From IMG/VR virus record IMGVR_UViG_3300045988_056900: a stretch of 64,000 nucleotides of DNA. One strand, written 5' to 3'. Made by a program: the position numbers and the translations under genes. Below the pieces are notes generated by a model, which was not told the DNA's origin, searched no databases, and saw only the letters and a program-made list of their open reading frames with translations. Every line of letters starts with the position of its first letter. Position 1 is the stretch's first letter. Of the stretch, positions 5,689 through 64,000 are shown piece by piece. Source of the DNA: a virus.

Positions 5689-5805
5689 AAACAAATAAAG
5701 AAATTAAGAGACTGTAGAGGGAGACCTTACCCCTTGGTAAAAGATAACATACTAATTAACTGTGTTAGTAACTTTTTTTCGTGAAAACTCGGTAATGGAT
5801 TACAG

Positions 5806-6831
5806 ATGAAAAGATATAATAATTTATTTGACAAAATAGTAACTTTAGACAATTTATATCTAGCGGATAAAAGAGCTAGAAGACAAAAACAACATAGACC
5901 TGAAATAATTAATTTTGATAAGAATAGAGAAAAATTACTTTTAGATCTATAGAAGAAATTAATAGATGGTGAATATAAGACTTCTGAATATTATATATTC
6001 AAGATATATGAACCTAAAGAAAGAGAAATATTCAAGCTTCCATACTATCCAGATAGAATAGTACATCATGCTATTATGAACATTATGGAACCTATTTGGG
6101 TATCATCTTTCATTAAAGGAACTTATAGTTGTATAAAAAATCGTGGTATACATAAAGCTCTGAAAGATGTTAAGTTCGCACTGAAAGATGAAGCCAATAC
6201 AAAATACTGTCTTAAGTTAGATGTCAGAAAATTTTATCCTTCAATAGATCATGATATATTAAAATAGTTAATAAGAAGAAAAGTAAAAGATAAGAAACTA
6301 TTAGTTATATTAGATGAAATAATAGATTCTGCATAGGGAGTACCTATTGGCAATTACTTATCACAATTCTTCGCTAATTTATATTTAACATATCTAGATC
6401 ACTGGATCAAAGAAGAAAAACATATAAAATACTATTTCAGATACGCAGATGATATTGTAATACTTCATAGTGATAAAGACTATTTAAGATAGTTGTTTAA
6501 GGATATGAAGTAGTACTTAGAAGAGAGGCTTAACATTAACTTTAAAGATAATTGGCAAATATTTAAAGTTGACGATAGAGGAATAGATTTCGTAGGGTAT
6601 AAGATATTTCATACTCACACTCTGTTAAGAAAGCATATTAAGAAGAACTTCTGTAAAAGAGTAAGTAAATTGAACAAGAAAGATAACTTAGACAAGAGTG
6701 CTTATCAATAGAAAATATGTAGTTATATAGGTTGGATTAAGTACTGTAATGGTCGTAATTTATTTAGTAAAATGACTAAATATAAAGAGCTATTGCGATA
6801 CATATCAAAAAGTAAGAAGAAGAAAACCTAA
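5806..6831 (+). CDS. DGR reverse transcriptase, read through six in-frame TAGs (5950, 6265, 6334, 6490, 6511, 6709)
   Basis: GVPIGNYLSQFFANLYL is the DGR-RT signature (IGxxxSQ) and FRYADDIVIL is the YxDD box. All fragments share one frame and the gene ends at TAA 6829. Confidence 0.9.
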
Positions 6832-42608: not shown

Positions 42609-42679
42609 CAAAGCAACGGGACTCGAACCACGTCGTATAAGCAATCAACCTTATACGTAACCCAATTTGTTATACTTCG
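42609..42679 (-). ncRNA. Non-canonical tRNA-like element (~71 nt)
   Basis: Acceptor CGAAGTA/TGCTTTG (two G:U pairs), D-like arm TAAC-AAATTGG-GTTA, 7-bp stem with an 8-nt loop (GTATAAG-GTTGATTG-CTTATAC), and T arm ACG(T)GG-TTCGAGT-CCCGT. It sits 19 nt upstream of the primase ATG. Confidence 0.4.
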
Positions 42680-42686
42680 GTATAAA

Positions 42687-42712
42687 ACGTAGGTTAGAAT
42701 CCTAACCTACGT
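42687..42712 (-). terminator. Terminator hairpin after the SSB gene
   Basis: 11-bp perfect stem ACGTAGGTTAG / CTAACCTACGT with a 4-nt loop, followed on the minus strand by TTTAT. Confidence 0.7.
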
Positions 42713-42755
42713 ATTCCTAGCTTATGCTCTAGGTAGCTACTATTTTTAAGTTATC

Positions 42756-46246: not shown

Positions 46247-48226
46247 TTAATCCCATAGGCTCATTTGTAACGGTTTTAATTCACGGATTATCTTATAGGC
46301 TTCCATAATGTAATACCTATAATTAATCTTTCTCTCTTCAATTGGTTTATCGTCTAAGTAATTTAATAAAGTAACACCAGATGCAGTAAGCATATTCTGA
46401 TACTGTTTTTCTTTTGCAACAAATATCTTTTTACCTACATATGGTTCATCATATTCTATAATTTCACCTTCTTTGTGTCCTGTTGGTTTCCATTTCCATA
46501 AATAGGCACCATTAGTACTTGCATAGAAACGATTAGTCCTTTGTTGTTCTTTATTATTATACTCAACATGCCATTGTTTACCAGTCTTTTCAGCCATTAG
46601 AAAGTCTCTAATGTCTTGGCAACCTTTTATAGTTTCTTCTACTGGTACTCCGTTCTTAAAAAAGTTTATTACTGCTTTCGGTATGATCTTCGGAGTTAGA
46701 CCTTTCCCTAATTTCACAGTAGTAATAAACATACCCTTTTCTTTTACTTTATCATCTTCAGTAATAGCAAAGTAGTCATTTATAGCATATTGATACATAG
46801 CCTTAAAACGTTCTTCTTCTAAAGTAAGTTTAGTAAGTTGTTCCCATTCTCTGCATACTTTGTTTACACTATCATATACAGATTTTTTAAGTAATACAAA
46901 CAGACCATCTGTATTAGCTTGGACGATTCGACATCCTAATTGGGTTAGTTTTTCAGCTAGCATTAGTAATAGTAACTGCCCATTTATACGTATTTGCATT
47001 ACTGCAAATGGACTATAACAGAAATTATGTGGATTCTGTAAGTTACCTGATAATCCATTGAGAGCAAGCTTTAAGGTTTCGTTTTTAACCTTATTGCCAT
47101 TGTGTTTAGCTTCGATGCGCTCATCTTTAATTTGTCTATATACTTCTAGAAATTCAGGTCCTAAATGTTTAGGATAGAACCCATATTCTATTAGCATACT
47201 TGGATATAGTGATGCAACATCTATATCAATGAGCATTTCATCTTCTTTTGGTATAACTATTTCAGGATCATTCACTGAATGAATTCCTCCAACTCCTACA
47301 GAATATCTTAATCCTTCAAATATGAATTTATTTTCATATCCTTTTCTTCCTGGAGATACTATTTGACTTTTCATATCATCTAGTACTTTTTGAAGTATAG
47401 GACTATCATACTTAATAAATGGTAGGATTACCTTATTTAAAGGTATTACATCCATTGGAGATCTTAAATCTTTAATATCATACCAGGTTTGACCTGTCTT
47501 TTCAAGATATTTCTGAGTTAAAATCTTCATTCCAATGTTTACTCCGTCTTTACTAAGTACTCTTACTCCGTATTCATCTTCAATAGCTAACCTTAAATCT
47601 ACATCTTTTTTACATCTATTGAGTAACTCTTCAGTAGAATTAACATCATTAATATTATACTCAATCATTGAATCTATTTGATTTTCAGGTAAATCTGCCT
47701 GCCAATCTGCAACAAATTCCTGTACATTTCTGTACTGCATTGTTACTTGAATTTCTTTCAAACCTACTCTTAACTTATTGCTATAAAGCATAGTAAGAAT
47801 ATCAAACGAATCAAAACAAATCATATACTTCCACTTACTCCAAGCTCTAATATCGTCTTCACTTGAAGTAGTAATTACTTTACTTAAATTAAATATAGAT
47901 CTACATATATCTCTATATCCTTTGTATTTCATTACAACATAATAATCTATTATATAATTTATAATAGGATTATCATAATGAAGATTATTATAACCACAAA
48001 ATAATTTATTAGTATTTAACTGAATTTTTGTAGTATATAAGTCTCCGAAAGTATAGTCTGTATTAACTGTATGAAAGAAATTGACTAATTCATCTAATTG
48101 ATTTCTTCTGCAAGATATTTCAAATTTATGCAATTCACCTGTTTCTGTATTTTTTACAGTACAATGGAAAACATTGGGGAATACCTCAATATCATATACA
48201 TAAACAATCTTATCTCGTATAATCAT
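46247..48226 (-). CDS. Family B DNA polymerase
   Basis: Exo I VYDIEVF, Exo II YNNLHYDNPII, Exo III YNINDVNSTEEL, motif A DVASLYPSML, motif B KLALNGLSG, motif C ANTDGLFV. Confidence 0.9.
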   Translation of the reverse strand: MIIRDKIVYVYDIEVFPNVFHCTVKNTETGELHKFEISCRRNQLDELVNFFHTVNTDYTFGDLYTTKIQLNTNKLFCGYNNLHYDNPIINYIIDYYVVMKYKGYRDICRSIFNLSKVITTSSEDDIRAWSKWKYMICFDSFDILTMLYSNKLRVGLKEIQVTMQYRNVQEFVADWQADLPENQIDSMIEYNINDVNSTEELLNRCKKDVDLRLAIEDEYGVRVLSKDGVNIGMKILTQKYLEKTGQTWYDIKDLRSPMDVIPLNKVILPFIKYDSPILQKVLDDMKSQIVSPGRKGYENKFIFEGLRYSVGVGGIHSVNDPEIVIPKEDEMLIDIDVASLYPSMLIEYGFYPKHLGPEFLEVYRQIKDERIEAKHNGNKVKNETLKLALNGLSGNLQNPHNFCYSPFAVMQIRINGQLLLLMLAEKLTQLGCRIVQANTDGLFVLLKKSVYDSVNKVCREWEQLTKLTLEEERFKAMYQYAINDYFAITEDDKVKEKGMFITTVKLGKGLTPKIIPKAVINFFKNGVPVEETIKGCQDIRDFLMAEKTGKQWHVEYNNKEQQRTNRFYASTNGAYLWKWKPTGHKEGEIIEYDEPYVGKKIFVAKEKQYQNMLTASGVTLLNYLDDKPIEERKINYRYYIMEAYKIIRELKPLQMSLWD

Positions 48227-48246
48227 AATTAATAATGTTAGTTTGA

Positions 48247-48303
48247 GTCTGTGGAGGGAATCGAACCCTCATTTAACAGTTTTTCCATTTAAACTACACA
48301 GAC
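48247..48303 (-). ncRNA. tRNA-like element lacking an anticodon arm (57 nt)
   Basis: GTCTGTG-TA-GTTT-AAATGGAA-AAAC-TGTTAAAT-GAGGG-TTCGATT-CCCTC-CACAGAC. It has a perfect 7-bp acceptor stem, a D arm with GG and a canonical T arm, but only 8 nt where the anticodon arm should be. Confidence 0.55.
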
Positions 48304-48356: not shown

Positions 48357-48806
48357 TTAGGCGGCTAGCGAAGCCTTTGTTGTACTTGTTTTTCGTACAT
48401 ACGTTTTCTTAAACGCTACAAGGGAAGCTTTGTACTTAGCCTTGTCTTCTTTGCTTTGTTTAATAGATTTTGCTTTAGATTGTTTCATATGAATAATCAT
48501 ATGATCAAACTTAACTTGAGCATCGAGCTGTTTTCTGTCGTATTTATTAAACCTAGGATAATTGATAGATTGAAATACGAAAGTACTTTTTCTCTTTTCA
48601 ACAAGAGCTTTTGCTCTTTCTCGTTTAACTTTTCTACGAGCTTTAAGTTCTTCACTATAGAAGTTTTTTGGTTTAACCTCTTCTTCAGAAGTAATTTGTT
48701 TTACTCGAAATACTCTTCTTTCTGCTTTTCGAGCATTTCTTGCTGCAACTCTCTCTTCACTACGTGCTATTTTATATTCTTCTTTTCTGTTTTTATCTAT
48801 TTTCAT
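48357..48806 (-). CDS. Lys/Arg-rich hypothetical protein ending in -SLAA
   Basis: Intact 149-aa ORF with a TAA stop. Confidence 0.8.
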   Translation of the reverse strand: MKIDKNRKEEYKIARSEERVAARNARKAERRVFRVKQITSEEEVKPKNFYSEELKARRKVKRERAKALVEKRKSTFVFQSINYPRFNKYDRKQLDAQVKFDHMIIHMKQSKAKSIKQSKEDKAKYKASLVAFKKTYVRKTSTTKASLAA

Positions 48807-49649: not shown

Positions 49650-50159
49650 TTAAGCGGCTAGACAAATAGGAGCTGATTCAATATCAAGTTCAGCTTTGTC
49701 ATTAAAATCTTCTAAGTCTTTATTCAACTTATTAATTTCTATCTGCAGCTTATTCTTTATATTGCTGATGTAAGCTGAAGTGAGTTCCTCACTAATATTC
49801 AGATTCTTTTTGCCTTTAGCTCGCTTTATCTTTGGGTCGATTGTTTTAATCTTCCCTAAATGAAACAGTTGTTCCTGTTTCTCGGATAGTGAAAATATTG
49901 TATAATAGTTATTTTCTGCTGGTAAATCAGAGAACTTCTTATAACCCATATTAATACATTGTAAATACAGTTTCATAAGAATTCGTTCTTCTGCCATTTC
50001 TTGAATCTTCGTTAACAGTACCTTAAGGTCATAATTACGAATAGTTCCTTTAGAAATGATATTTTCGTTTTTAATAATCGTCCAATATTTAGTAATATCT
50101 TTACTAAGTTCATCGCGACGATTTTTTGCATATTTAGATGTAATTGATTTCATATTCAA
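49650..50159 (-). CDS. Coiled-coil hypothetical protein ending in -CLAA
   Basis: Intact 169-aa ORF with a TAA stop. Confidence 0.8.
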   Translation of the reverse strand: MNMKSITSKYAKNRRDELSKDITKYWTIIKNENIISKGTIRNYDLKVLLTKIQEMAEERILMKLYLQCINMGYKKFSDLPAENNYYTIFSLSEKQEQLFHLGKIKTIDPKIKRAKGKKNLNISEELTSAYISNIKNKLQIEINKLNKDLEDFNDKAELDIESAPICLAA

Positions 50160-50209
50160 GTGATTTGTTTTTTAAGTTAATACTTGACCGAAATCGTTTA
50201 CTAGTTAGT

Positions 50210-50274
50210 CATGCATGACAGATTCAAACTGCCGTCCCTCTGATGAGTGCTCTAATCAACTAAGCTAATGCATG
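50210..50274 (-). ncRNA. tRNA-like element lacking an anticodon arm (65 nt)
   Basis: CATGCAT-TA-GCTT-AGTTGATTA-GAGC-(15 nt)-GGCAG-TTTGAAT-CTGTC-ATGCATG. It has a perfect acceptor stem and classical D and T arms. I found no 5-bp stem with a 7-nt loop in the 15-nt linker. Confidence 0.55.
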
Positions 50275-50290
50275 TTATATAATAGAGAAC

Positions 50291-50374
50291 TACCCCATTC
50301 AGTAGTCTCTATTAAAGTAGTACCCCATTCAGTACTATTAATAGATATTGATATGATGAATACCCAGTTCAGTA
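50291..50374. repeat. Three direct copies of the 14-mer TACCC(C/A)(A/G)TTCAGTA
   Basis: Copies at 50291-50304, 50321-50334 and 50361-50374, with 30 and 40 bp spacing. Confidence 0.8.
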
Positions 50375-50950
50375 TTATAAATCATCACGTTCAACAATTT
50401 TTATTTCTTTTGCAAAATAGACCGGTAGAATCCGTCCGTCTGTTGTTTTAGCACCAACATATAGTTTATTTCCTGTTTCAGAAACTCCTACACTTCGGTT
50501 ATGTTCTTTTTCATTCGAATACTTTTGTAAATACTTTTCATTGATATACTTAGAATGTAGTTCTCCGTTCGTACTACTTCTTACTACATCAAATAAAATA
50601 TCTACCATTTTATCCAAATCATTATTATCGGTAGCTTCTTTTAATATGGCATTCATAATACCATAAAAAGCTTCCTCATTTCTTGCTTCTCCAGTTCCAG
50701 ACATTGTGTCTGCTAATTTGATTGCTATATCAGTAATACTCACCAGTCCATGAGCATTAAAGAACCGTTGCCACCATCTAGGACCACTTCCATAGTACAA
50801 GATAATCTGTCCATCCTCTTGTATATCTACTTTTTTAGGTCTTTCGTTAATTCTCCCATTCAAGATCTTAACTTTTGCTAAAACAGCTGGTTCATAAATA
50901 ATTAGCATACGCAAGATATCAACCCGGGAAGGTGATAATCTTCCGTTCAT
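50375..50950 (-). CDS. Hypothetical protein
   Basis: Intact 191-aa ORF. Confidence 0.8.
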   Translation of the reverse strand: MNGRLSPSRVDILRMLIIYEPAVLAKVKILNGRINERPKKVDIQEDGQIILYYGSGPRWWQRFFNAHGLVSITDIAIKLADTMSGTGEARNEEAFYGIMNAILKEATDNNDLDKMVDILFDVVRSSTNGELHSKYINEKYLQKYSNEKEHNRSVGVSETGNKLYVGAKTTDGRILPVYFAKEIKIVERDDL

Positions 50951-51588: not shown

Positions 51589-51780
51589 AAAAAATGTTCC
51601 CTTCTTGAGTCCGCATTTGATATACCAATACAGATCATTTTTTAGTTTTTAAGTTAATAATAAGTTAATGCTCTCCACTGTTCGATTATTTTATAGCATT
51701 ACAATAATGGTAATGGTGAATTCAATCACATAATCTACTAGGTATTAAAATAATAAATGTTAATTTATTTGAAAATATCT

Positions 51781-51819
51781 TCTGATAAATTCTCTGATAA
51801 TTTCTGTTAATTCTGATAT
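51781..51819 (-). promoter_or_regulatory. Array of four TTATCAGA-type repeats
   Basis: On the plus strand: TCTGATAA 51781, TCTGATAA 51793, TCTGTTAA 51803 and TCTGATAT 51812. Confidence 0.45.
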
Positions 51820-53736
51820 GTTTATCGTCCCGTTTCGACGGTTAAGATTCAACTTTTTCGATGCTTAACGCACCTCTCACCGTTATTTTATATCGCGATT
51901 AGATGCAATATAAAAGACATAGATCATTGACTAATGGTAAGTCTACCTAGTATTTCCGGATTATCGAAATTCATAGAATTACGGTCGTTTATCTAACGTT
52001 ACCAACTCACAAGCCCATTACTTATAGTATGGCCCACTTGTACCATGCATAGGATTTGTTGTTTATTCTGCTCGAACACGAGGATTTCCACCTCTCATCG
52101 TCTCCTTGTTGCTCAATTGTTATTACTATTGAGTCGAAATGTACTACGCCCTTTAATCTACCGAGACAGGGTGATAGGCGACAGGTTATTAACGAATCAG
52201 CGTTCTCTTTACATATATACTTGCAATATATACTTTAGGAGTTTCTAATGTCAGCGATGACGGTTGGCAGTCTGGGGTGGATCATACTCCTTATCTGACT
52301 ACTTTACAACAGTAGTTTGCTATCTCTGTACTCGCCATTGAACTTCCCAATTTGGTAAAGATTAATAATGTTAACAATTCACTTAGAACAGATTTAACTA
52401 GGCCGGTTCTATTCGGCATTAACTTTCAGATGCAGTAAAGTAACATCATCTGTTACAGTCTTACCTCTCTGGTTCCAGGGTTCTAAGCTGGAGCAGCTTG
52501 GCTCTTACTCATTAATTTATTGTTTTTGACCACTACTAATATCTCCTACTCTGGAATGAGTGTGATAATCTAGCAATGCACCTTTACATATCTTAAAAGG
52601 TATAAGCTCTGCTGTTTTTTACGAGGAGTTTTCTAAGCTTCTCCTTAGTATTATTTATCATTATAATCACACTTGCTAAAGGTGTGTAACGATTAGAATC
52701 AGGGTTATTGCGCCCTCAAACCGCTTAGACACTCTTGGTCTATTCATTCCTCATTCAATTATACTCACACGAACGAATAAGCACGTGAGTCACTTTAGAC
52801 TTGAAAGACGGTATCAATCTCATATACCTCATCCCTTATACGTAAATTCTTTTGCGGCACGCTAGTTACGGTAGCGCACAGGATTGGCTCCTGCTCCCTG
52901 GTAATCAGTCTATTTTCACTATAATTTTAACATAGTTACTTAGGATCATTGCATGTCCAGCCTTCATATCTTTACTTTGTATAAGTATGTACCATAACAC
53001 GGTTATCCTTACATTAGTATCAGTAATTACTCCCTTTATATTATGAACCAATTATCATAAAAACACTAGAGTTAGCCTATTTTTCCAATCAGGACGCATA
53101 GTTGCGTTTTTGTATGAAGCGAGGTTGGAACCCGCTTGTTGCGTTAGTCAGCCATAATGTATTTTTCGATAATCCTTTTCCAAGGGATTATCCAAGAACC
53201 CTTTGTCCTTGTTTCAGCATCGTGTTCATATTCCTTCTTGAGTCACATCTTGATTGACGCATACGAATATAGAGATTTCGTTCTCTTTTTGAGGATTAAG
53301 GATTTCATCTTTTGTAGTTTTTATTTGCTTATTGCTACGAATTCATCTCCTCGGTTTTGAATTAATTTGTAACTAGGGTATCTTCTTGTAGCTCCTATAT
53401 TACGGGTTCTTCACTCTTAATATCACCAGACGGTTCTCATATTAACAGCGCAGGCTATTCACCCTCTCCTGCTTTCTTATACCTTTTTCACCAGTATAAG
53501 TTATTATCCTACCTTTTGAGTATCTCACAGTGTTAGCTGCTACGAAGCATCTCATAACTACTTCTTACATATTCTCGGATTCTGTCTTTTTTCGGGCTAT
53601 GTGTAAATGGACACAAACTCCCTGACGCAGTAGTACTTAAAAACTTCCTTCTGTGACTGCCGGAGTGATTTACGCTATAGTTTTACTCCTCTCGAACTAT
53701 GATATAATTATAGTATTTATATAGCGGCTATTATCA
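51820..53736. other. ~1.9 kb ORF-free, hairpin-rich, high-complexity region; candidate large non-coding RNA(s), strand unknown
   Basis: There is no minus-strand ORF of 60 aa or more. Only two plus-strand loci are listed (52045/52056 and 53157), and both translate as low-complexity. In the stretches I translated, TAA, TGA and TAG all occur in every frame. Confidence 0.5.
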
Positions 53737-58136: not shown

Positions 58137-58321
58137 GGTTTATTGATTTCTTTTTTAAAGTTATCTACTATACCAGATACTTGATCCATAGTTAGTTGTG
58201 GATATTTATCCATTACTTTACCTATTGCTTCAATATCTGATTTGCTTTCGTTCAACATTTTCTTGAACTCTCTCTCTTCTTGTCTGGAGTCAAACCAAAC
58301 CCACCAAGGTACTACGCGCAT
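58133..58321 (-). CDS. Small hypothetical protein
   Basis: 62-aa ORF with a 4-nt overlap to its downstream neighbour and a 10-nt overlap to its upstream neighbour. Confidence 0.6.
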   Translation of the reverse strand: MRVVPWWVWFDSRQEEREFKKMLNESKSDIEAIGKVMDKYPQLTMDQVSGIVDNFKKEINKP

Positions 58322-58590
58322 TGATATTCGTATTCTTTAATTTTGTTATTCAATAGCTCCCATTTTTCCTTGTCGATATCAGTTGCTTCTACTAAGTAGA
58401 TGATATCACAAGATGCTCTAAATACACCACGAATGTAGTTCATTCCCTCTTTATAATGATATTTGTTCTTATAAATTCTGGGAACATTTGCATGTAGACG
58501 AGTTATTAACTCTGTCTTCATTTTCAGTTCTGTTGCAGCTTTCTCCCATGATTCTGGTAAGTTCTGCCTAATAAAGTTCATTAATCCCAT
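58312..58590 (-). CDS. Small hypothetical protein
   Basis: Intact 92-aa ORF. Confidence 0.7.
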   Translation of the reverse strand: MGLMNFIRQNLPESWEKAATELKMKTELITRLHANVPRIYKNKYHYKEGMNYIRGVFRASCDIIYLVEATDIDKEKWELLNNKIKEYEYQCA

Positions 58591-58627
58591 TTCAAATTAA
58601 TTTATTGATTAAACTTAATTTAATTGT

Positions 58628-58686
58628 GGCATTAGAGGGAATCGAACCCTCTAACAGCTCTTACGTCTGATCTAGCCTGATATGCC
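58628..58686 (-). ncRNA. Divergent tRNA-like minihelix element (59 nt)
   Basis: GGCA...TGCC (4 bp) stacked on an 8-bp T-arm-like hairpin TTAGAGGG-TTCGATT-CCCTCTAA, giving a 12-bp minihelix equivalent, plus one internal arm with a 14-nt loop. Lies 37 nt upstream of ATG 58590. Confidence 0.4.
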
Positions 58687-59101
58687 TTACCACTTAGTTT
58701 TATATTTATTAAAATACTACGAGGCGACTGTCACTATTTCTAGCGCTAAAATCTATTTCACAACCCCATCATTAGTAACAGTTTCTCTTTAAATAAAGAG
58801 TTGTTAACCAGGATACTGTATGCTCCCCTGGGGATATCTCACGCTGCTAAGCGTGTATAATCCATTACATAACTTGTATTGCCAGTTATCTGCTTATTGA
58901 CCTATTCTACTTCACATTGTCGCAGTCAAATGCCTAGATGCCCCATTTAAAGTAGTACTCTTACAAAATTTAACTTATAGTTTGAGTACTACTCCCGATC
59001 TTCCTATCGCTGTTAATGAAAAAACTCTTAGAGAGAAATCGAAAATTAGCGTAAGATTTCTATACGGGCCTCTTATTATTCTTGCTTATTCCATTTTTTG
59101 T

Positions 59102-59157
59102 GGAGCATGAGGGAGTCGAACCCTCGTCCTAACGACTGATTCATAGACCTAACAGTC
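59102..59157 (-). ncRNA. tRNA 3'-half-like element
   Basis: GACTG-(14-nt loop TTAGGTCTATGAAT)-CAGTC-GTTAGGAC-GAGGG-TTCGACT-CCCTC-ATGCTCC. No adjacent 5' acceptor strand or D arm. Confidence 0.4.
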
Positions 59158-59788
59158 AATGAGTTTATAAGATTAATTGAAGTATAACTCGCGTACAGAA
59201 TTAAGCCATTCTTCCTGCTTTATTATTTAACACAGTTCACAGCACTCTCTACAGGTGAGCCTTCGTTATGTTATACAATATCCCTGCTATTTTTACAATT
59301 AATCTTATATTGTGACTAGGTAGGCGACCAAACCTACCTAGCCTATGGTCTTTTACGATATTTAAAGTATTCTCATACTATTAATGCCTTGATAACCTGT
59401 CTTGGAAGTATAGAATACTTTTCAGCTTCTATACGGCATGATGTCTAGCATCGCACTATTCCAAAAATGCCGACTTGATATCATAAGAATGCTATTGCAT
59501 AATATACTCAAAGAGTATAGAATCTGTATTTATATATTGCGCAATTTATATATACATCCTCATGATCTTAGGCACATGATCAGTGGCACGTTGTCATAAT
59601 GTCCTACTCTGGCATCGGTTGTATTACTACACCTTACACTTGTTGTATGCATGTCAATTCATGCATGAGCTGCATCTTCTGGTACTTAGCACATAAAATG
59701 TCATCACCACCTATTAGCTACTTTCTCTAGTTAGGTTATATAGTCAGTATTTCTACTGCTAAAACACTATACCTGGACTATGCGCGGA

Positions 59789-60300: not shown

Positions 60301-60567
60301 TTATTTACTCTTCTTTTTTGCAAGATATTCTTTACGAAGACGTCTCTTGCGTTGGTTACATGATTCACGTTTACCTGCTTTGACAAGTTTACGATTCTCA
60401 TATGCCTGTTCTCTTTTCCAGCTATTTTCACGAATGAGCTGTAAATAGATAATCTCACGAGCTATATTAGCTTCTGCTTTAGCTTTATGAGCATTGATGC
60501 GTCCTTGAATTATCTCTTTTGACACACCTCTTTTTCTCATTTCTGAGATAATTCTTCTTTGTCCCAT
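60301..60567 (-). CDS. Small highly basic protein
   Basis: 88-aa ORF rich in K and R. Confidence 0.65.
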   Translation of the reverse strand: MGQRRIISEMRKRGVSKEIIQGRINAHKAKAEANIAREIIYLQLIRENSWKREQAYENRKLVKAGKRESCNQRKRRLRKEYLAKKKSK

Positions 60568-60776
60568 ATTTTTGATAATTTGGTTTTAGAATTAAAAAAA
60601 GAACTGTTCTGTATATTCCTATCTCTTATTCTACAGATAACCCCTATCCTTCTCTCCCTTTATCTGTAGATTTACAGATTGCCGTTGAATAGCCATTACA
60701 TAGTAATATGTATTAGGGTTTTGGTATATTTACAGTTCTTTCGGGTTGATTGGAATCCACCATACTAACAATTTAA

Positions 60777-62223: not shown

Positions 62224-62701
62224 TTTTACATAGGCTTTAAAATTGTTAGTTAATAAATATGATGACGTCTGTATACAGCACTATATACAGAATAATTTAC
62301 CGCAGTGCTACGGAGATTTGAGACTAATACTATAAAGCAATAGCGCTCTATTGCACATCTGTTATTAAAGAAATCATTTCCACATATTACTATGTTTAAT
62401 TTAAACCCTCACATGTTTTAGGATTACTCCAGAGTACAAGCAGAAAAGGCTGTCAAACCTAATCTTATCACTCACCTGATTTTAACGTCCGCACGATCGT
62501 AGTATTTGCAATTATCAGTACTAATTAGAGTAATTGCCACCCTTCTTCTCCCGCTTAAAAATACTACTTACGCCCCACAGGCTTGTCATCTTCTGAAGAC
62601 TAGTCTATTCTCACGAACAAACTAGTTGTGTCGAAATTTTTAAACCATTTCTATGCAAAATGCTTCAAAAAACTGTAATAACTTGTTTTAATTATTACTC
62701 T

Positions 62702-63698: not shown

Positions 63699-64000
63699 GT
63701 ATTACTAGGAAAACAACAGCAATTGCTCCTATAAATAGAAGTAAATTGAAAAATGTTGTCATTATTATTTAATTTGTTAATACTGTTAAATAATTTTAAA
63801 TACATTAGCTTCACATGCAAACTAGGAAGATTTGTTTTTAACATGTTACTAGACTCTATCACCACGATGAGGTTGTATTTATTGATAGAGAAGACTACTA
63901 CAACACCTTATTAGACTCGGATTTTACATGTAGTAGTCGGGGAATACGTGACAGGTATTAATATATATCAAATGTGTAACCATTTTCAATAAATAAGCCT

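What the first reader, a model, noticed from the sequence alone, without database searches (positions are those of the whole stretch)
48247..48303. tRNA-shaped RNA with no anticodon arm, 20 nt upstream of the DNA polymerase start codon
Seen in the sequence: there is a perfect 7-bp acceptor stem (GTCTGTG/CACAGAC), a D arm whose loop contains GG, and a canonical T arm (GAGGG-TTCGATT-CCCTC). Only 8 nt (TGTTAAAT) lie where the 17-nt anticodon arm plus variable loop should be, giving a total of 57 nt.

Similar armless or partial tRNA-like elements sit 19-50 nt upstream of the start codons of the primase (42609-42679), gene 49650..50159 (50210-50274) and gene 58312..58590 (58628-58686).

Established knowledge: RNase P, RNase Z and the CCA-adding enzyme recognise the acceptor/T-arm minihelix and elbow, not the anticodon.

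Inference: these may act as tRNA-like punctuation that is cleaved out of polycistronic early transcripts to define mRNA 5' ends, or as decoys for tRNA-targeting host defences. I am not aware of this having been described for crAss-like phages.
Basis: partly seen in the sequence, partly recalled or inferred. Interest (0 to 1): 0.75.

Follow-up and report, generated by a model that had tools for sequence, protein, structure and literature searches.

The report
Anticodon-less tRNA mimic before phage polymerase
A gut crAss-like phage carries a conserved 57-base RNA, 20 bases before its DNA polymerase gene, that keeps every part of a tRNA except the anticodon arm, so it cannot decode and most likely marks where host tRNA-trimming enzymes cut the phage message.

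Summary
On the minus strand at 48246-48303 lies a 57-nt tRNA-shaped element. It has a 7-bp acceptor stem, a D arm with GG and a T arm with TTCGA. Eight nt stand where the anticodon arm and variable loop should be. Rfam's tRNA model scores it 44.9 bits (threshold 29). ARAGORN finds no tRNA.

The window is a Buchavirus (Crassvirales, Suoliviridae). All 87 related loci examined carry a tRNA-shaped element 18-23 nt before the polymerase ATG. The three stems covary: 13 of 16 pairs show double changes and 97% of cells are paired. The region between the D and T arms is variable. It is absent, a 4-6 bp stub with a small loop, a 65-70 nt insert, or a real anticodon arm (Arg, Val).

Three further sites in the window show the same pattern: 50209-50274, 42609-42679 and 58627-58686. 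In the sister genera examined, the element at 50209-50274 is a canonical tRNA-Arg(UCU), or Lys(UUU) in one locus.

Best reading: tRNA-derived, non-decoding elements kept as handles for RNase P and 3' tRNA processing, which would free short-leader mRNAs. Cleavage is inferred, not shown. I found no description of this in the searchable literature. It is a new variant of a known kind.

The parts
48246..48303 (-). Anticodon-armless tRNA-like element E1. It is 57 nt plus discriminator U at 48246. Acceptor strands at 48303-48297 and 48253-48247; D arm 48294-48279; 8-nt linker 48278-48271; T arm 48270-48254.
   Evidence: Rfam tRNA 44.9 bits, with the anticodon arm skipped in the alignment. No ARAGORN call. 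Fold z = -3.7. Covariation across 24 distinct versions.
48227..48245 (-). Conserved trailer and leader CAAACTAACATTATTAATT between the tRNA-like 3' end and the polymerase ATG. It starts with the invariant C74-W75-A76; CCA is not encoded.
   Evidence: In 28 of 28 distinct versions, N73 varies while C74 and A76 are invariant. Spacing from position 72 to the ATG is 18-23 nt.
46247..48226 (-). DNA polymerase gene, 659 aa. Its 5' leader contains E1.
   Evidence: PHROG phrog_1252 DNA polymerase, E = 2.4e-149. Annotated as DNA polymerase in cr113_1 and others.
50209..50274 (-). tRNA-like element E2, 65 nt plus discriminator. It has a 3-bp stub (CTC/GAG) and a 4-nt loop in place of the anticodon arm. 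It lies 49 nt upstream of the TTG start of ORF 49650..50159 (56 nt upstream of the in-frame ATG at 50152-50150 that aligns with the start in relatives).
   Evidence: Model R1 scores 20.3 bits, E = 1.4e-3. The minimum-free-energy fold is a cloverleaf with a stub. In the 11 Buchavirus versions, 100% of cells are paired and 9 of 16 pairs show double changes. The same site holds canonical tRNA-Arg(UCU) in Blohavirus and Buorbuivirus relatives.
42609..42679 (-). tRNA-like element E3. Acceptor CGAAGTA/TGCTTTG, no D stem, an 8-bp hairpin with an 8-nt loop, and a bulged T arm. It ends 19 nt upstream of the primase ATG (42589).
   Evidence: Sequence and RNAfold. The window element is not significant on its own (R1 gives a T-arm-only match at E = 3; fold z-score -0.06). 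Relatives carry clearer acceptor plus T-arm elements at the same site.
58627..58686 (-). tRNA-like element E4. A 5-bp acceptor (GGCAT/ATGCC) is stacked on a 7-bp T stem (TAGAGGG/CCCTCTA) with a TTCGATT loop. It lies directly after the tmRNA gene and 36 nt upstream of ORF 58312..58590.
   Evidence: R1 scores 18.8 bits, E = 3.8e-3. Compensatory changes relative to cr53_1. Variants occur in cr52_1, cr56_1, cr4_1 and cr60_1.
58748..59194 (-). Context: a two-piece (permuted) tmRNA gene with tag GNTSYVMDYTRLAA. Its acceptor has G3-U70 and the same A-C-A-A 3' trailer.
   Evidence: ARAGORN. Rfam tmRNA_permuted 40.3 bits, below its threshold of 47. Annotated as SsrA in GenBank relatives.

Best explanation
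E1 is a tRNA-derived RNA structure that has lost its decoding part. It keeps the acceptor stem, the T arm and the D/T-loop elbow, the parts that host tRNA-maturation enzymes recognise.

It is transcribed as part of the leader of the polymerase message. Proposed mechanism:
1. RNase P cuts at its 5' end (before G1, 48303).
2. A 3' tRNA-processing nuclease (RNase Z or an equivalent) cuts after the discriminator (48246).
3. This separates the polymerase message from upstream RNA and leaves it with a fixed, unstructured, A/U-rich leader of about 19 nt.

E2, E3 and E4 would do the same for three other genes in this region (the primase and two genes of unknown function). Self-cleaving ribozymes sit between small genes further upstream.

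**Shown:** the structure; its conservation and covariation; its fixed position; the dispensability of the anticodon arm; and that it must be co-transcribed with the polymerase gene.

**Inferred:** the cleavages, the enzymes and the benefit.
For: 1. **Position.** A tRNA-shaped element sits 18-23 nt before the polymerase ATG in 87 of 87 related loci. In seven genomes checked from four other Suoliviridae subfamilies, a tRNA or tRNA-like element, or at least an acceptor-like helix with hairpin arms, lies about 15-30 nt before the polymerase ATG or before a small ORF abutting it. An outgroup phage with a homologous polymerase has none.
2. **RNA-level selection on the stems.** 97.4% of cells are paired, 13 of 16 pairs show double changes, and the covariation score is 0.78 against 0.29 in shuffles (0 of 500 reach it) and at most 0.18 when the partners are slid. 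RNAalifold finds the same structure on its own. G-U pairs occur, which points to RNA of this strand.
3. **The region between the D and T arms is free to vary.** Versions seen: 8 nt; a 4-6 bp stub capped by a tri- or tetraloop (GTAA); a 4-bp stem with a 12-nt loop; 65-70 nt inserts, one capped by UUCG; or a canonical anticodon arm.
4. **tRNA identity at the site is not conserved.** Arg(UCU), Val(CAC), a doubtful Ser and a doubtful His all occur, and the discriminator varies among T, A and C. What is conserved is the shape at that position.
5. **Canonical tRNAs at the same site set a precedent.** Where the site holds a canonical tRNA, with the same trailer and spacing, that tRNA must be excised to function. 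Processing at this spot therefore follows for those relatives. The armless forms keep the same determinants.
6. **Co-transcription.** The 19-nt gap before the ATG has no room for a promoter or terminator, and stem covariation requires that the element is transcribed. Element and polymerase gene therefore share a transcript.
7. **3' processing must act on this phage's RNAs.** CCA is never encoded and N-C-W-A always is. The phage tmRNA has the same trailer and needs a CCA end to function.
8. **The elbow is preserved.** The tertiary pair 19-56 is G-C in E1 and A-U in E2 and its canonical tRNA-Arg relatives.
9. **The same pattern recurs at three other gene starts**. Some relatives are reduced to acceptor, connector and T arm only, 41-44 nt. 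By established knowledge, that is the minimal RNase P and CCA-enzyme substrate.
10. **Upstream hairpins.** A hairpin sits just 5' of E1, E2 and E3. It could protect the 3' end of the upstream fragment after cleavage.
Against: - There are no data on RNA ends, so cleavage is unproven.
- A 5'-monophosphate end made by RNase Z usually speeds mRNA decay in bacteria, so a benefit to the downstream message is not obvious.
- If only a cleavage handle were needed, a bare minihelix should suffice. E1 nevertheless keeps a full D arm and elbow. This could also point to a function of the excised RNA itself.
- The conserved trailer motif C-W-A-A-C-T-A has no known role in RNase P or RNase Z recognition.
- The transcription units and the RNA polymerase used for these genes are unknown. 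A host-type Bacteroides -7 motif is not found near the elements.
Confidence: 0.5

Rival explanations
1. The excised element is itself the product. It would be a stable, CCA-tailed, non-decoding tRNA mimic acting in trans. Examples: a decoy or sponge for host factors or defence effectors that recognise the acceptor end or elbow of tRNAs, or a ligand for a tRNA-binding enzyme. Its position in the polymerase leader would only be a convenient way to express it early.
For: - The full D arm, the elbow tertiary pair and the T-loop consensus are kept, more than a minimal cleavage handle needs.
- Stubs are capped with stable GNRA- or UUCG-type loops, which suggests selection for a compact and stable fold.
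- There are four such elements plus a tmRNA in one region.
- The anticodon loop, the target of many anticodon nucleases, is the part that has been removed.
Against: - The tight, family-wide spacing to the start codon (18-23 nt) and the conserved trailer are not explained by a purely trans-acting RNA.
- Acceptor sequence and discriminator vary freely, so no sequence-specific partner at the acceptor end is evident.
- In some relatives the elements shrink to a bare minihelix or lose the T-loop consensus (cr272_1).
- No tRNA-related phage enzyme was found among the ten neighbouring proteins tested.
Confidence: 0.2
2. The element stays attached to the polymerase message and works in cis without cleavage at its 3' side. 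It would be a structured 5' cap that protects the mRNA from 5'-end-dependent decay, or a tRNA-shaped platform next to the ribosome landing site that tunes Shine-Dalgarno-independent initiation.
For: - The fixed distance of about 20 nt places the structure at the edge of the ribosome footprint on the start codon.
- The trailer is more conserved than the stems.
- Bacteroidota initiate without Shine-Dalgarno pairing and depend on unstructured A/U-rich leaders (established knowledge).
Against: - In relatives the same site holds canonical tRNAs that must be released to function.
- A generic hairpin would protect a 5' end just as well, so retaining a tRNA elbow is not explained.
- No direct evidence.
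Confidence: 0.17
3. It is a dying tRNA gene: a tRNA-Arg-like gene that suffered a deletion of the anticodon arm, has no function, and has not yet decayed.
For: - Sister genera carry canonical tRNA-Arg(UCU) at the E2 site, and some lineages carry it at the polymerase site.
- The E1 D arm and variable-loop remnant (TAAAT) resemble those of the canonical tRNA-Arg at the same site in L050.
- The AGA share of Arg codons is slightly lower in Buchavirus, 0.38-0.41 against 0.44-0.48.
Against: - Compensatory changes occur within the armless forms themselves: G-C to A-T in cr113_1, and five acceptor and T-stem pairs exchanged between the window type and the cr52_1 type.
- In A1, 374 of 384 stem cells form standard pairs (97.4%). 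The ten that do not fall at four columns in a few lineages, which does not look like random decay.
- Non-decoding forms occur in several subfamilies, so the state is old.
- The stubs covary.
- The element is never lost in 87 loci.
Confidence: 0.05
4. It is a DNA-level element: a recombination or attachment-site remnant, an origin-associated site, or a promoter-like box that happens to look like a tRNA gene.
For: - Phage attachment sites often copy parts of tRNA genes.
- The element lies in the replication module, and a conserved 2.1-kb non-coding stretch lies 3.3 kb away.
Against: - Both halves of each stem are present and covary, including G-U pairs. These would be A-C mismatches on the other strand.
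- All four elements are on the coding strand.
- No integrase context was seen.
Confidence: 0.03

Closest known systems
tRNA punctuation of mitochondrial transcripts, and the 't-elements' (tRNA-like structures) of plant mitochondria
   Same: tRNA or tRNA-like folds lie between coding units on one transcript. They serve as RNase P and RNase Z cleavage marks that define mRNA ends. t-elements are non-decoding acceptor/T-arm mimics.
   Different: Here the setting is a bacteriophage genome and cleavage has not been shown. The elements are graded derivatives of phage tRNA genes, with canonical tRNAs still at the same sites in sister genera.
mascRNA and MEN-beta tRNA-like elements at the 3' ends of MALAT1 and NEAT1 (mammals)
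   Same: A small (~60 nt) tRNA-like fold with a reduced, non-decoding anticodon arm is embedded in a longer transcript. It is cut by RNase P and RNase Z and is CCA-tailed.
   Different: Those define the 3' end of a nuclear long non-coding RNA. E1 lies in the 5' leader of a protein-coding gene, and its anticodon arm is removed entirely rather than shortened.
TMER tRNA-like elements of murine gammaherpesvirus 68
   Same: Virus-encoded tRNA-like RNAs that are not aminoacylated. They act as handles for host tRNase Z to release the downstream RNA.
   Different: They occur in a eukaryotic virus, are driven by Pol III promoters and have pre-miRNAs as the downstream product. They retain a cloverleaf with an anticodon arm.
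tRNA-like domain of tmRNA
   Same: Acceptor stem and T arm without an anticodon arm, processed by RNase P and CCA-tailed. One is encoded 10 kb away in this same window.
   Different: tmRNA has G3-U70 and is alanylated. It has a reduced D arm and carries an mRNA-like domain. E1 has C3-G70, a full D arm and nothing else attached.
Armless mitochondrial tRNAs of nematodes and mites
   Same: Extremely truncated tRNAs (42-60 nt) that are still recognised by processing enzymes.
   Different: Those lose the D and/or T arm but always keep the anticodon arm and still decode. E1 is the inverse case.
tRNA-mRNA co-transcripts in bacteria and phages (E. coli tufB operon, phage T4 tRNA cluster)
   Same: tRNA excision by RNase P and 3' nucleases also processes the flanking RNA.
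   Different: The tRNAs there are functional decoders, and their position relative to start codons is not fixed.

Membership tests
Canonical decoding tRNA (Rfam RF00005) | 7-bp acceptor stem closed by a discriminator base | tested here: met
   GTCTGTG/CACAGAC plus U73. All seven pairs covary.
Canonical decoding tRNA (Rfam RF00005) | D arm with G18 G19, and T arm with a T54-T55-C56 loop forming the elbow | tested here: met
   D loop AAATGGAA and T loop TTCGATT. U8, A14, G18 and A21 are invariant, G19 is nearly so, and T-loop positions 54-56 and 58 are invariant in alignment A1.
Canonical decoding tRNA (Rfam RF00005) | Anticodon arm: 5-bp stem with a 7-nt loop carrying an anticodon | tested here: not met
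   Only 8 nt lie between the D and T arms. The Rfam alignment replaces 18 model positions by 4 nt. ARAGORN finds no tRNA.
Canonical decoding tRNA (Rfam RF00005) | Score above the family's gathering threshold | tested here: met
   44.9 bits against 29. The model tolerates a missing arm through a local end, so this shows descent and shape, not decoding.
Canonical decoding tRNA (Rfam RF00005) | Conserved aminoacylation identity (discriminator and acceptor identity pairs) | tested here: inconclusive
   N73 is T, A or C, and acceptor pairs differ freely among versions. No G3-U70. Charging itself cannot be tested here.
tmRNA tRNA-like domain | G3-U70 alanine identity pair | tested here: not met
   E1 has C3-G70. 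The window's own tmRNA does have G3-U70.
tmRNA tRNA-like domain | Linked mRNA-like domain with a tag reading frame | tested here: not met
   E1 is 57 nt with both acceptor strands adjacent to the D and T arms. ARAGORN and Rfam tmRNA hits lie only at 58748-59194.
tRNA-like processing signals (mitochondrial punctuation, plant t-elements, mascRNA) | Non-decoding acceptor/T-arm mimic on the sense strand between coding units | tested here: met
   E1 lies between ORF 48357..48806 and the polymerase gene on the coding strand. The same holds for E2, E3 and E4.
tRNA-like processing signals (mitochondrial punctuation, plant t-elements, mascRNA) | Cleavage by RNase P at the 5' side and RNase Z at the 3' side, defining the flanking RNA ends | not testable with these tools
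   No RNA-end data can be accessed. Cleavage is inferred from the retained determinants and from canonical tRNAs at the same site in relatives.
Viral 3' tRNA-like structures (TYMV, BMV type) | Located at the 3' end of an RNA genome with a pseudoknotted acceptor arm | tested here: not met
   This is a DNA phage, the element is internal in a 5' leader, and it has an ordinary 7-bp acceptor helix.
Bacterial Y RNA (YrlA) tRNA-like module | tRNA-like D/T module joined to a Ro-binding helix; matches the Rfam model | tested here: not met
   No Y RNA or YrlA match at E <= 10 in 40000-64000. No extra helix is attached.

The most novel reading that the evidence does not exclude
Suoliviridae phages may have turned several of their tRNA genes into a dedicated class of anticodon-less 'top-half' tRNAs. 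These would be matured and CCA-tailed like tRNAs, and the mimic itself would do work during infection. It could act as a decoy for host defences or enzymes that read the tRNA acceptor end or elbow, or dock on the translation machinery to start Shine-Dalgarno-independent translation of the adjacent gene. Together with the hatchet and RAGATH RNAs upstream, this would amount to a phage gene-expression programme built on host RNA-processing enzymes and ribozymes.
Probability: 0.18. Interest if true: 0.85.

Novelty: new variant of a known kind. Interest (0 to 1): 0.66.

Why it matters
If the processing model holds, it would show a bacteriophage family using tRNA-shaped punctuation, known so far from organelles, mammalian long non-coding RNAs and a herpesvirus. 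This would operate side by side with self-cleaving ribozymes to cut its replication-gene transcripts.

It also gives a natural series, from full tRNA to stubbed tRNA to armless tRNA to bare minihelix, showing which tRNA parts remain under selection once decoding is lost.

Two practical points follow:
- Annotations such as 'tRNA-His' in cr53_1, 'tRNA-Leu' in cr60_1 and 'tRNA-???' calls in crAss-like genomes are probably not decoders. They should not be used to infer codon supplementation or stop-codon reassignment.
- The elements are compact, portable candidates for RNA-processing parts in Bacteroides engineering.

Tried and rejected
- **ARAGORN** on the window and on 40 or so related loci gives no call for the armless forms. 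It gives only '???', 'His(atg)', 'Ser' or 'Leu' calls with poor stems for some stubbed forms.
- **Rfam at E <= 10** found no family other than tRNA for E1, and nothing for E2 or E3.
- **Rfam on relatives** found no known motif inside the 65-70 nt inserts of the cr56-type and L029-type elements.
- **The sigma-70 promoter and terminator scan** was uninformative. It found 53 promoter-like sites against 43 expected.
- **The Bacteroides -7 motif TAnnTTTG** is not enriched (89 against 78 expected) and is absent just upstream of the elements in the window. A perfect match 9 nt upstream of the element in cr113_1 and cr109_1 is therefore not general.
- **Leader-trailer pairing.** I considered that the leader GGTT pairs with the trailer AAAC to extend the acceptor. 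The register does not fit, so I rejected it.
- **E4 as the 3' end of a one-piece tmRNA.** Only 5 of 7 acceptor pairs would form, whereas the upstream T arm gives 7 of 7 with G3-U70. Rejected.
- **Counting covariation of the E2 stub** on the MAFFT alignment failed because the stub register shifts by one column between lineages. The stub covariation is therefore reported directly from the sequences.
- **Fetching distant relatives of the E4 region** with the 512-aa neighbouring protein returned only close relatives.
- **Literature searches** for tRNA-like elements, tmRNA and RNase P in crAss-like phages gave nothing specific.
- **AGA codon usage** differs only slightly and does not discriminate between the hypotheses.
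Full report
**1. The observation**

The element lies on the minus strand. Its parts are:
- acceptor GTCTGTG/CACAGAC (48303-48297 and 48253-48247)
- U8 A9
- D arm GTTT-AAATGGAA-AAAC
- an 8-nt linker TGTTAAAT
- T arm GAGGG-TTCGATT-CCCTC
- discriminator U (48246)
- 19 nt, then the ATG of a 659-aa DNA polymerase (48226). PHROG phrog_1252 matches at E = 2.4e-149.

Rfam's tRNA model scores it 44.9 bits against a gathering score of 29, E = 2.5e-6 for the window. In the alignment the 18 anticodon-arm positions are replaced by 4 nt. ARAGORN reports no tRNA in the 64 kb. The fold is much more stable than shuffles: -18.4 against -9.2 +/- 2.5 kcal/mol, with 0 of 200 as good.

**2. Where the window comes from**

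The region is 96% identical to crAss-like phage cr113_1. That phage is Buchavirus coli (Crassvirales, Suoliviridae, Loutivirinae), from human faeces.

**3. The same site in relatives**

I collected the polymerase upstream region from 8 GenBank genomes and 79 IMG/VR contigs. Every one of the 87 carries a tRNA-shaped element on the coding strand, ending 18-23 nt before the ATG. There are 28 distinct versions. They differ mainly in what lies between the D arm and the T arm:

| Type (example) | Between D arm and T arm |
|---|---|
| Window type and cr52_1 type | 8-9 nt, no arm |
| cr53_1 | stub that folds as 6 bp (5 bp by hand parse) with a triloop; annotated 'tRNA-His', ARAGORN anticodon 'atg' on a mismatched stem |
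| L043 | stub that folds as 5 bp (4 bp by hand parse) with a GTAA tetraloop; ARAGORN 'tRNA-???' |
| cr4_1 and cr114_1 | 4-bp stem with a 12-nt loop |
| cr56_1 type | ~65-nt rod capped by UUCG |
| L029 type | ~70-nt insert |
| L050 type | canonical tRNA-Arg(UCU), 63 bits |

In other subfamilies the site holds:
- tRNA-Arg(UCU) in cr115_1
- tRNA-Val(CAC) in cr55_1
- an odd 'tRNA-Ser' with an 8-bp anticodon stem in cr50_1
- multi-arm structures that no tool calls a tRNA: cr10_1 and cr6_1 keep a canonical TTCGA T arm, while cr272_1 keeps only an acceptor-like helix and two hairpins without the T-loop consensus. In cr118_1 the tRNA-like match lies before a small ORF that abuts the polymerase gene

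A non-crAss phage with a homologous polymerase (Flavobacterium phage Fpv2) has no such element.

**4. Structural selection**

I aligned the cores of 24 distinct versions, with the variable middle cut out (alignment A1).
- 97.4% of cells form standard pairs.
- 13 of 16 pairs have compensatory double changes.
- The covariation score is 0.78. Column shuffles give 0.29 (0 of 500 reach the observed value), and sliding the partners gives at most 0.18.
- RNAalifold predicts the same three helices independently.

Caveat: my parser required at least 5 of 7 acceptor pairs and 4 of 5 T-stem pairs, which biases the percentage paired. Even so, all loci passed, and most passed with perfect helices.

Compensation is also seen among the armless forms themselves:
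- G49-C65 becomes A-U in cr113_1.
- Three acceptor pairs and two T-stem pairs are exchanged between the window type and the cr52_1 type, and pair 1-72 is an A-A mismatch in the cr52_1 type. The D arm and linker stay alike.

G-U pairs show that the selection acts on RNA of this strand. U8, A14, G18, A21 and T-loop positions 54-56 and 58 are invariant, and G19 is nearly so.

**5. The other three elements**

I built a covariance model of the armless core (R1) and scanned the whole window with filters off. It finds E1 (61.8 bits), 50209-50274 (20.3 bits, E = 1.4e-3), 58627-58677 (18.8 bits, E = 3.8e-3) and the tmRNA T arm. Nothing else scores below E = 0.05.

*E2 (50209-50274).*
- It is a complete tRNA shape whose anticodon arm is a 3-bp stub with a 4-nt loop.
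- In Blohavirus and Buorbuivirus relatives the same site holds a canonical tRNA-Arg(UCU), or Lys(UUU) in one locus.
- In all Buchavirus versions it is stubbed. Stub stems covary (CTC/GAG, CTAT/ATAG, CTT/AAG, CCT/AGG) and loops include ATCA, GTAT, TTTA and GTAA.
- Its three main helices are 100% paired, with 9 of 16 pairs doubly changed.
- Its elbow pair 19-56 is A-U, as in the canonical tRNA-Arg relatives. E1 has G-C there.

*E3 (42609-42679, before the primase).*
- It has acceptor CGAAGTA/TGCTTTG, no D stem, an 8-bp hairpin and a bulged T arm.
- On its own it is not significant: R1 matches only its T arm at E = 3, and its fold z-score is -0.06. Its support comes from relatives.
- Relatives have clearer elements at the same site. 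Blohavirus has a 41-nt form made only of a 7-bp acceptor, a 10-nt connector (AATGGTTAAT) and a T arm.

*E4 (58627-58686).*
- It is a 5-bp acceptor stacked on a 7-bp T stem.
- It covaries with cr53_1. In cr52_1 it is reduced to 44 nt, in cr56_1 and cr4_1 it has four arms, and in cr60_1 it is annotated tRNA-Leu.

**6. What can be said about mechanism**

Shown:
- The stems are selected at the RNA level, so the element is transcribed.
- The 19 nt between it and the ATG cannot hold a promoter or a terminator. Element and polymerase gene are therefore on one transcript.
- The conserved features are the shape and the position. The tRNA identity, the discriminator and the anticodon are not conserved.
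- CCA is never encoded. Instead N73-C74-W75-A76 is invariant in 28 of 28 versions. It recurs after E2 and E4 (E3 has A-C-A-A in the window, but some relatives differ) and after the phage tmRNA's acceptor piece, which needs a CCA end to be charged.

Inferred:
- Where relatives have a working tRNA at the same site, with the same trailer and spacing, its maturation must cut the transcript at these boundaries.
- The armless forms keep the acceptor/T-arm helix and the elbow. By established knowledge these are what bacterial RNase P, tRNase Z and the CCA-adding enzyme recognise, and minihelices are known substrates.
- The likely outcome is a polymerase mRNA with a ~19-nt A/U-rich leader, suited to Shine-Dalgarno-independent initiation in Bacteroidota, and an upstream fragment ending in a small hairpin. 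Hairpins sit just 5' of E1, E2 and E3.

I give this reading 0.5. The main rivals are:
- a trans-acting stable mimic (0.2)
- an uncleaved cis structure (0.17)
- a decaying pseudogene (0.05, disfavoured by covariation and age)
- a DNA-level element (0.03, disfavoured by G-U pairs and strand bias)

**7. Comparison with known systems**

The element works like mitochondrial tRNA punctuation and plant t-elements, mascRNA, and the herpesvirus TMER tRNA-like handles. It is not a member of the decoding tRNAs, because the anticodon arm was tested and is absent. It is not a tmRNA-type domain either: it has no G3-U70, no mRNA part and a full D arm. It is the inverse of the armless mitochondrial tRNAs, which keep only the anticodon arm plus acceptor.

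Full-text searches found nothing on such elements in Crassvirales. One preprint mentions low-scoring tRNA-like pseudogenes in another crAss genus. A large survey lists generic 'tRNA-like' candidates in phages without this case.

**8. Verdict**

This is a real, conserved, tRNA-derived RNA that almost certainly cannot decode. It is part of a set of four in the replication region of this phage and is family-wide at the polymerase site. It is a new variant of a known kind, tRNA-like processing elements. Its function is inferred, not shown.

Noticed in passing
window 51589-53736: A 2.1-kb stretch has no ORF of 60 aa or more on the coding (minus) strand and only three short ones (60-67 aa) on the plus strand. 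All three stop codons are frequent in every minus-strand frame. It has no Rfam match at E < 1. Yet relatives conserve it at the DNA level as well as or better than the flanking genes: for example, an 84.7%-identical alignment with L100 runs through it (54638-51584), and there are islands of 91% in a different genus. It is a candidate large non-coding RNA or replication origin.
   Followed up: partly
window 58748-59194 (-): A two-piece (permuted) tmRNA gene with tag peptide GNTSYVMDYTRLAA, a G3-U70 acceptor and an A-C-A-A trailer. ARAGORN calls it. Rfam tmRNA_permuted gives 40.3 bits, below its threshold of 47. It is annotated as SsrA in GenBank records of cr60_1, cr52_1, cr114_1, cr115_1, cr125_1 and cr10_1.
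   Followed up: partly
window 59564-59665, 60597-60753, 62474-62600, 63798-63890 (all -): A cluster of Rfam RNA motifs lies between small ORFs upstream of the tRNA-like elements: RAGATH-20 (122 bits), RAGATH-9 (129.5 bits, ending 29 nt before the ORF start at 60567), a hatchet ribozyme (99.8 bits) and a weak HDV-like match (24 bits). This suggests heavy RNA processing of this region.
   Followed up: no
window 5723-5812 (+): An RT-17 RNA motif at 40.8 bits, just above its threshold of 40.4. This family is associated with reverse-transcriptase genes, so a diversity-generating retroelement or retron-like unit may be nearby.
   Followed up: no
window 50280-50400 (-): Three successive hairpins with a shared loop and stem motif ACTGAAYGGGGTA lie directly upstream of E2. 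The last is a long hairpin ending 6 nt before the element.
   Followed up: no
window 42683-42716 (-): A 10-bp hairpin followed by TTTTATA ends about 3 nt before E3. The motif ACGTTTT(A)TA is conserved at this place across genera. It looks like a terminator, but no room is left for a promoter before the primase gene.
   Followed up: partly
L001 1948-2019 (cr53_1 'tRNA-His'); L186 963-1042 (cr60_1 'tRNA-Leu'); L191 2406-2485 (cr50_1 'tRNA-Ser'): These GenBank tRNA annotations are sister elements with stubbed or odd anticodon arms and are probably not decoders. The 'His' call needs a mismatched stem, whereas a 6-bp stem with a triloop fits better.
   Followed up: partly
L151 7941-8015: At the E2 site this Blohavirus-like contig has tRNA-Lys(UUU) where its sisters have tRNA-Arg(UCU). 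The apparent anticodon switch is a single C35-to-U change (an adjacent stem base also differs).
   Followed up: no
window 48227-48245 and 50202-50208; related loci: The motif C-W-A-A-C-T-A directly after the discriminator is shared by the polymerase-site and E2-site elements across genera. C74 and A76 are invariant and C75 never occurs. No known RNase P or RNase Z determinant explains this.
   Followed up: partly
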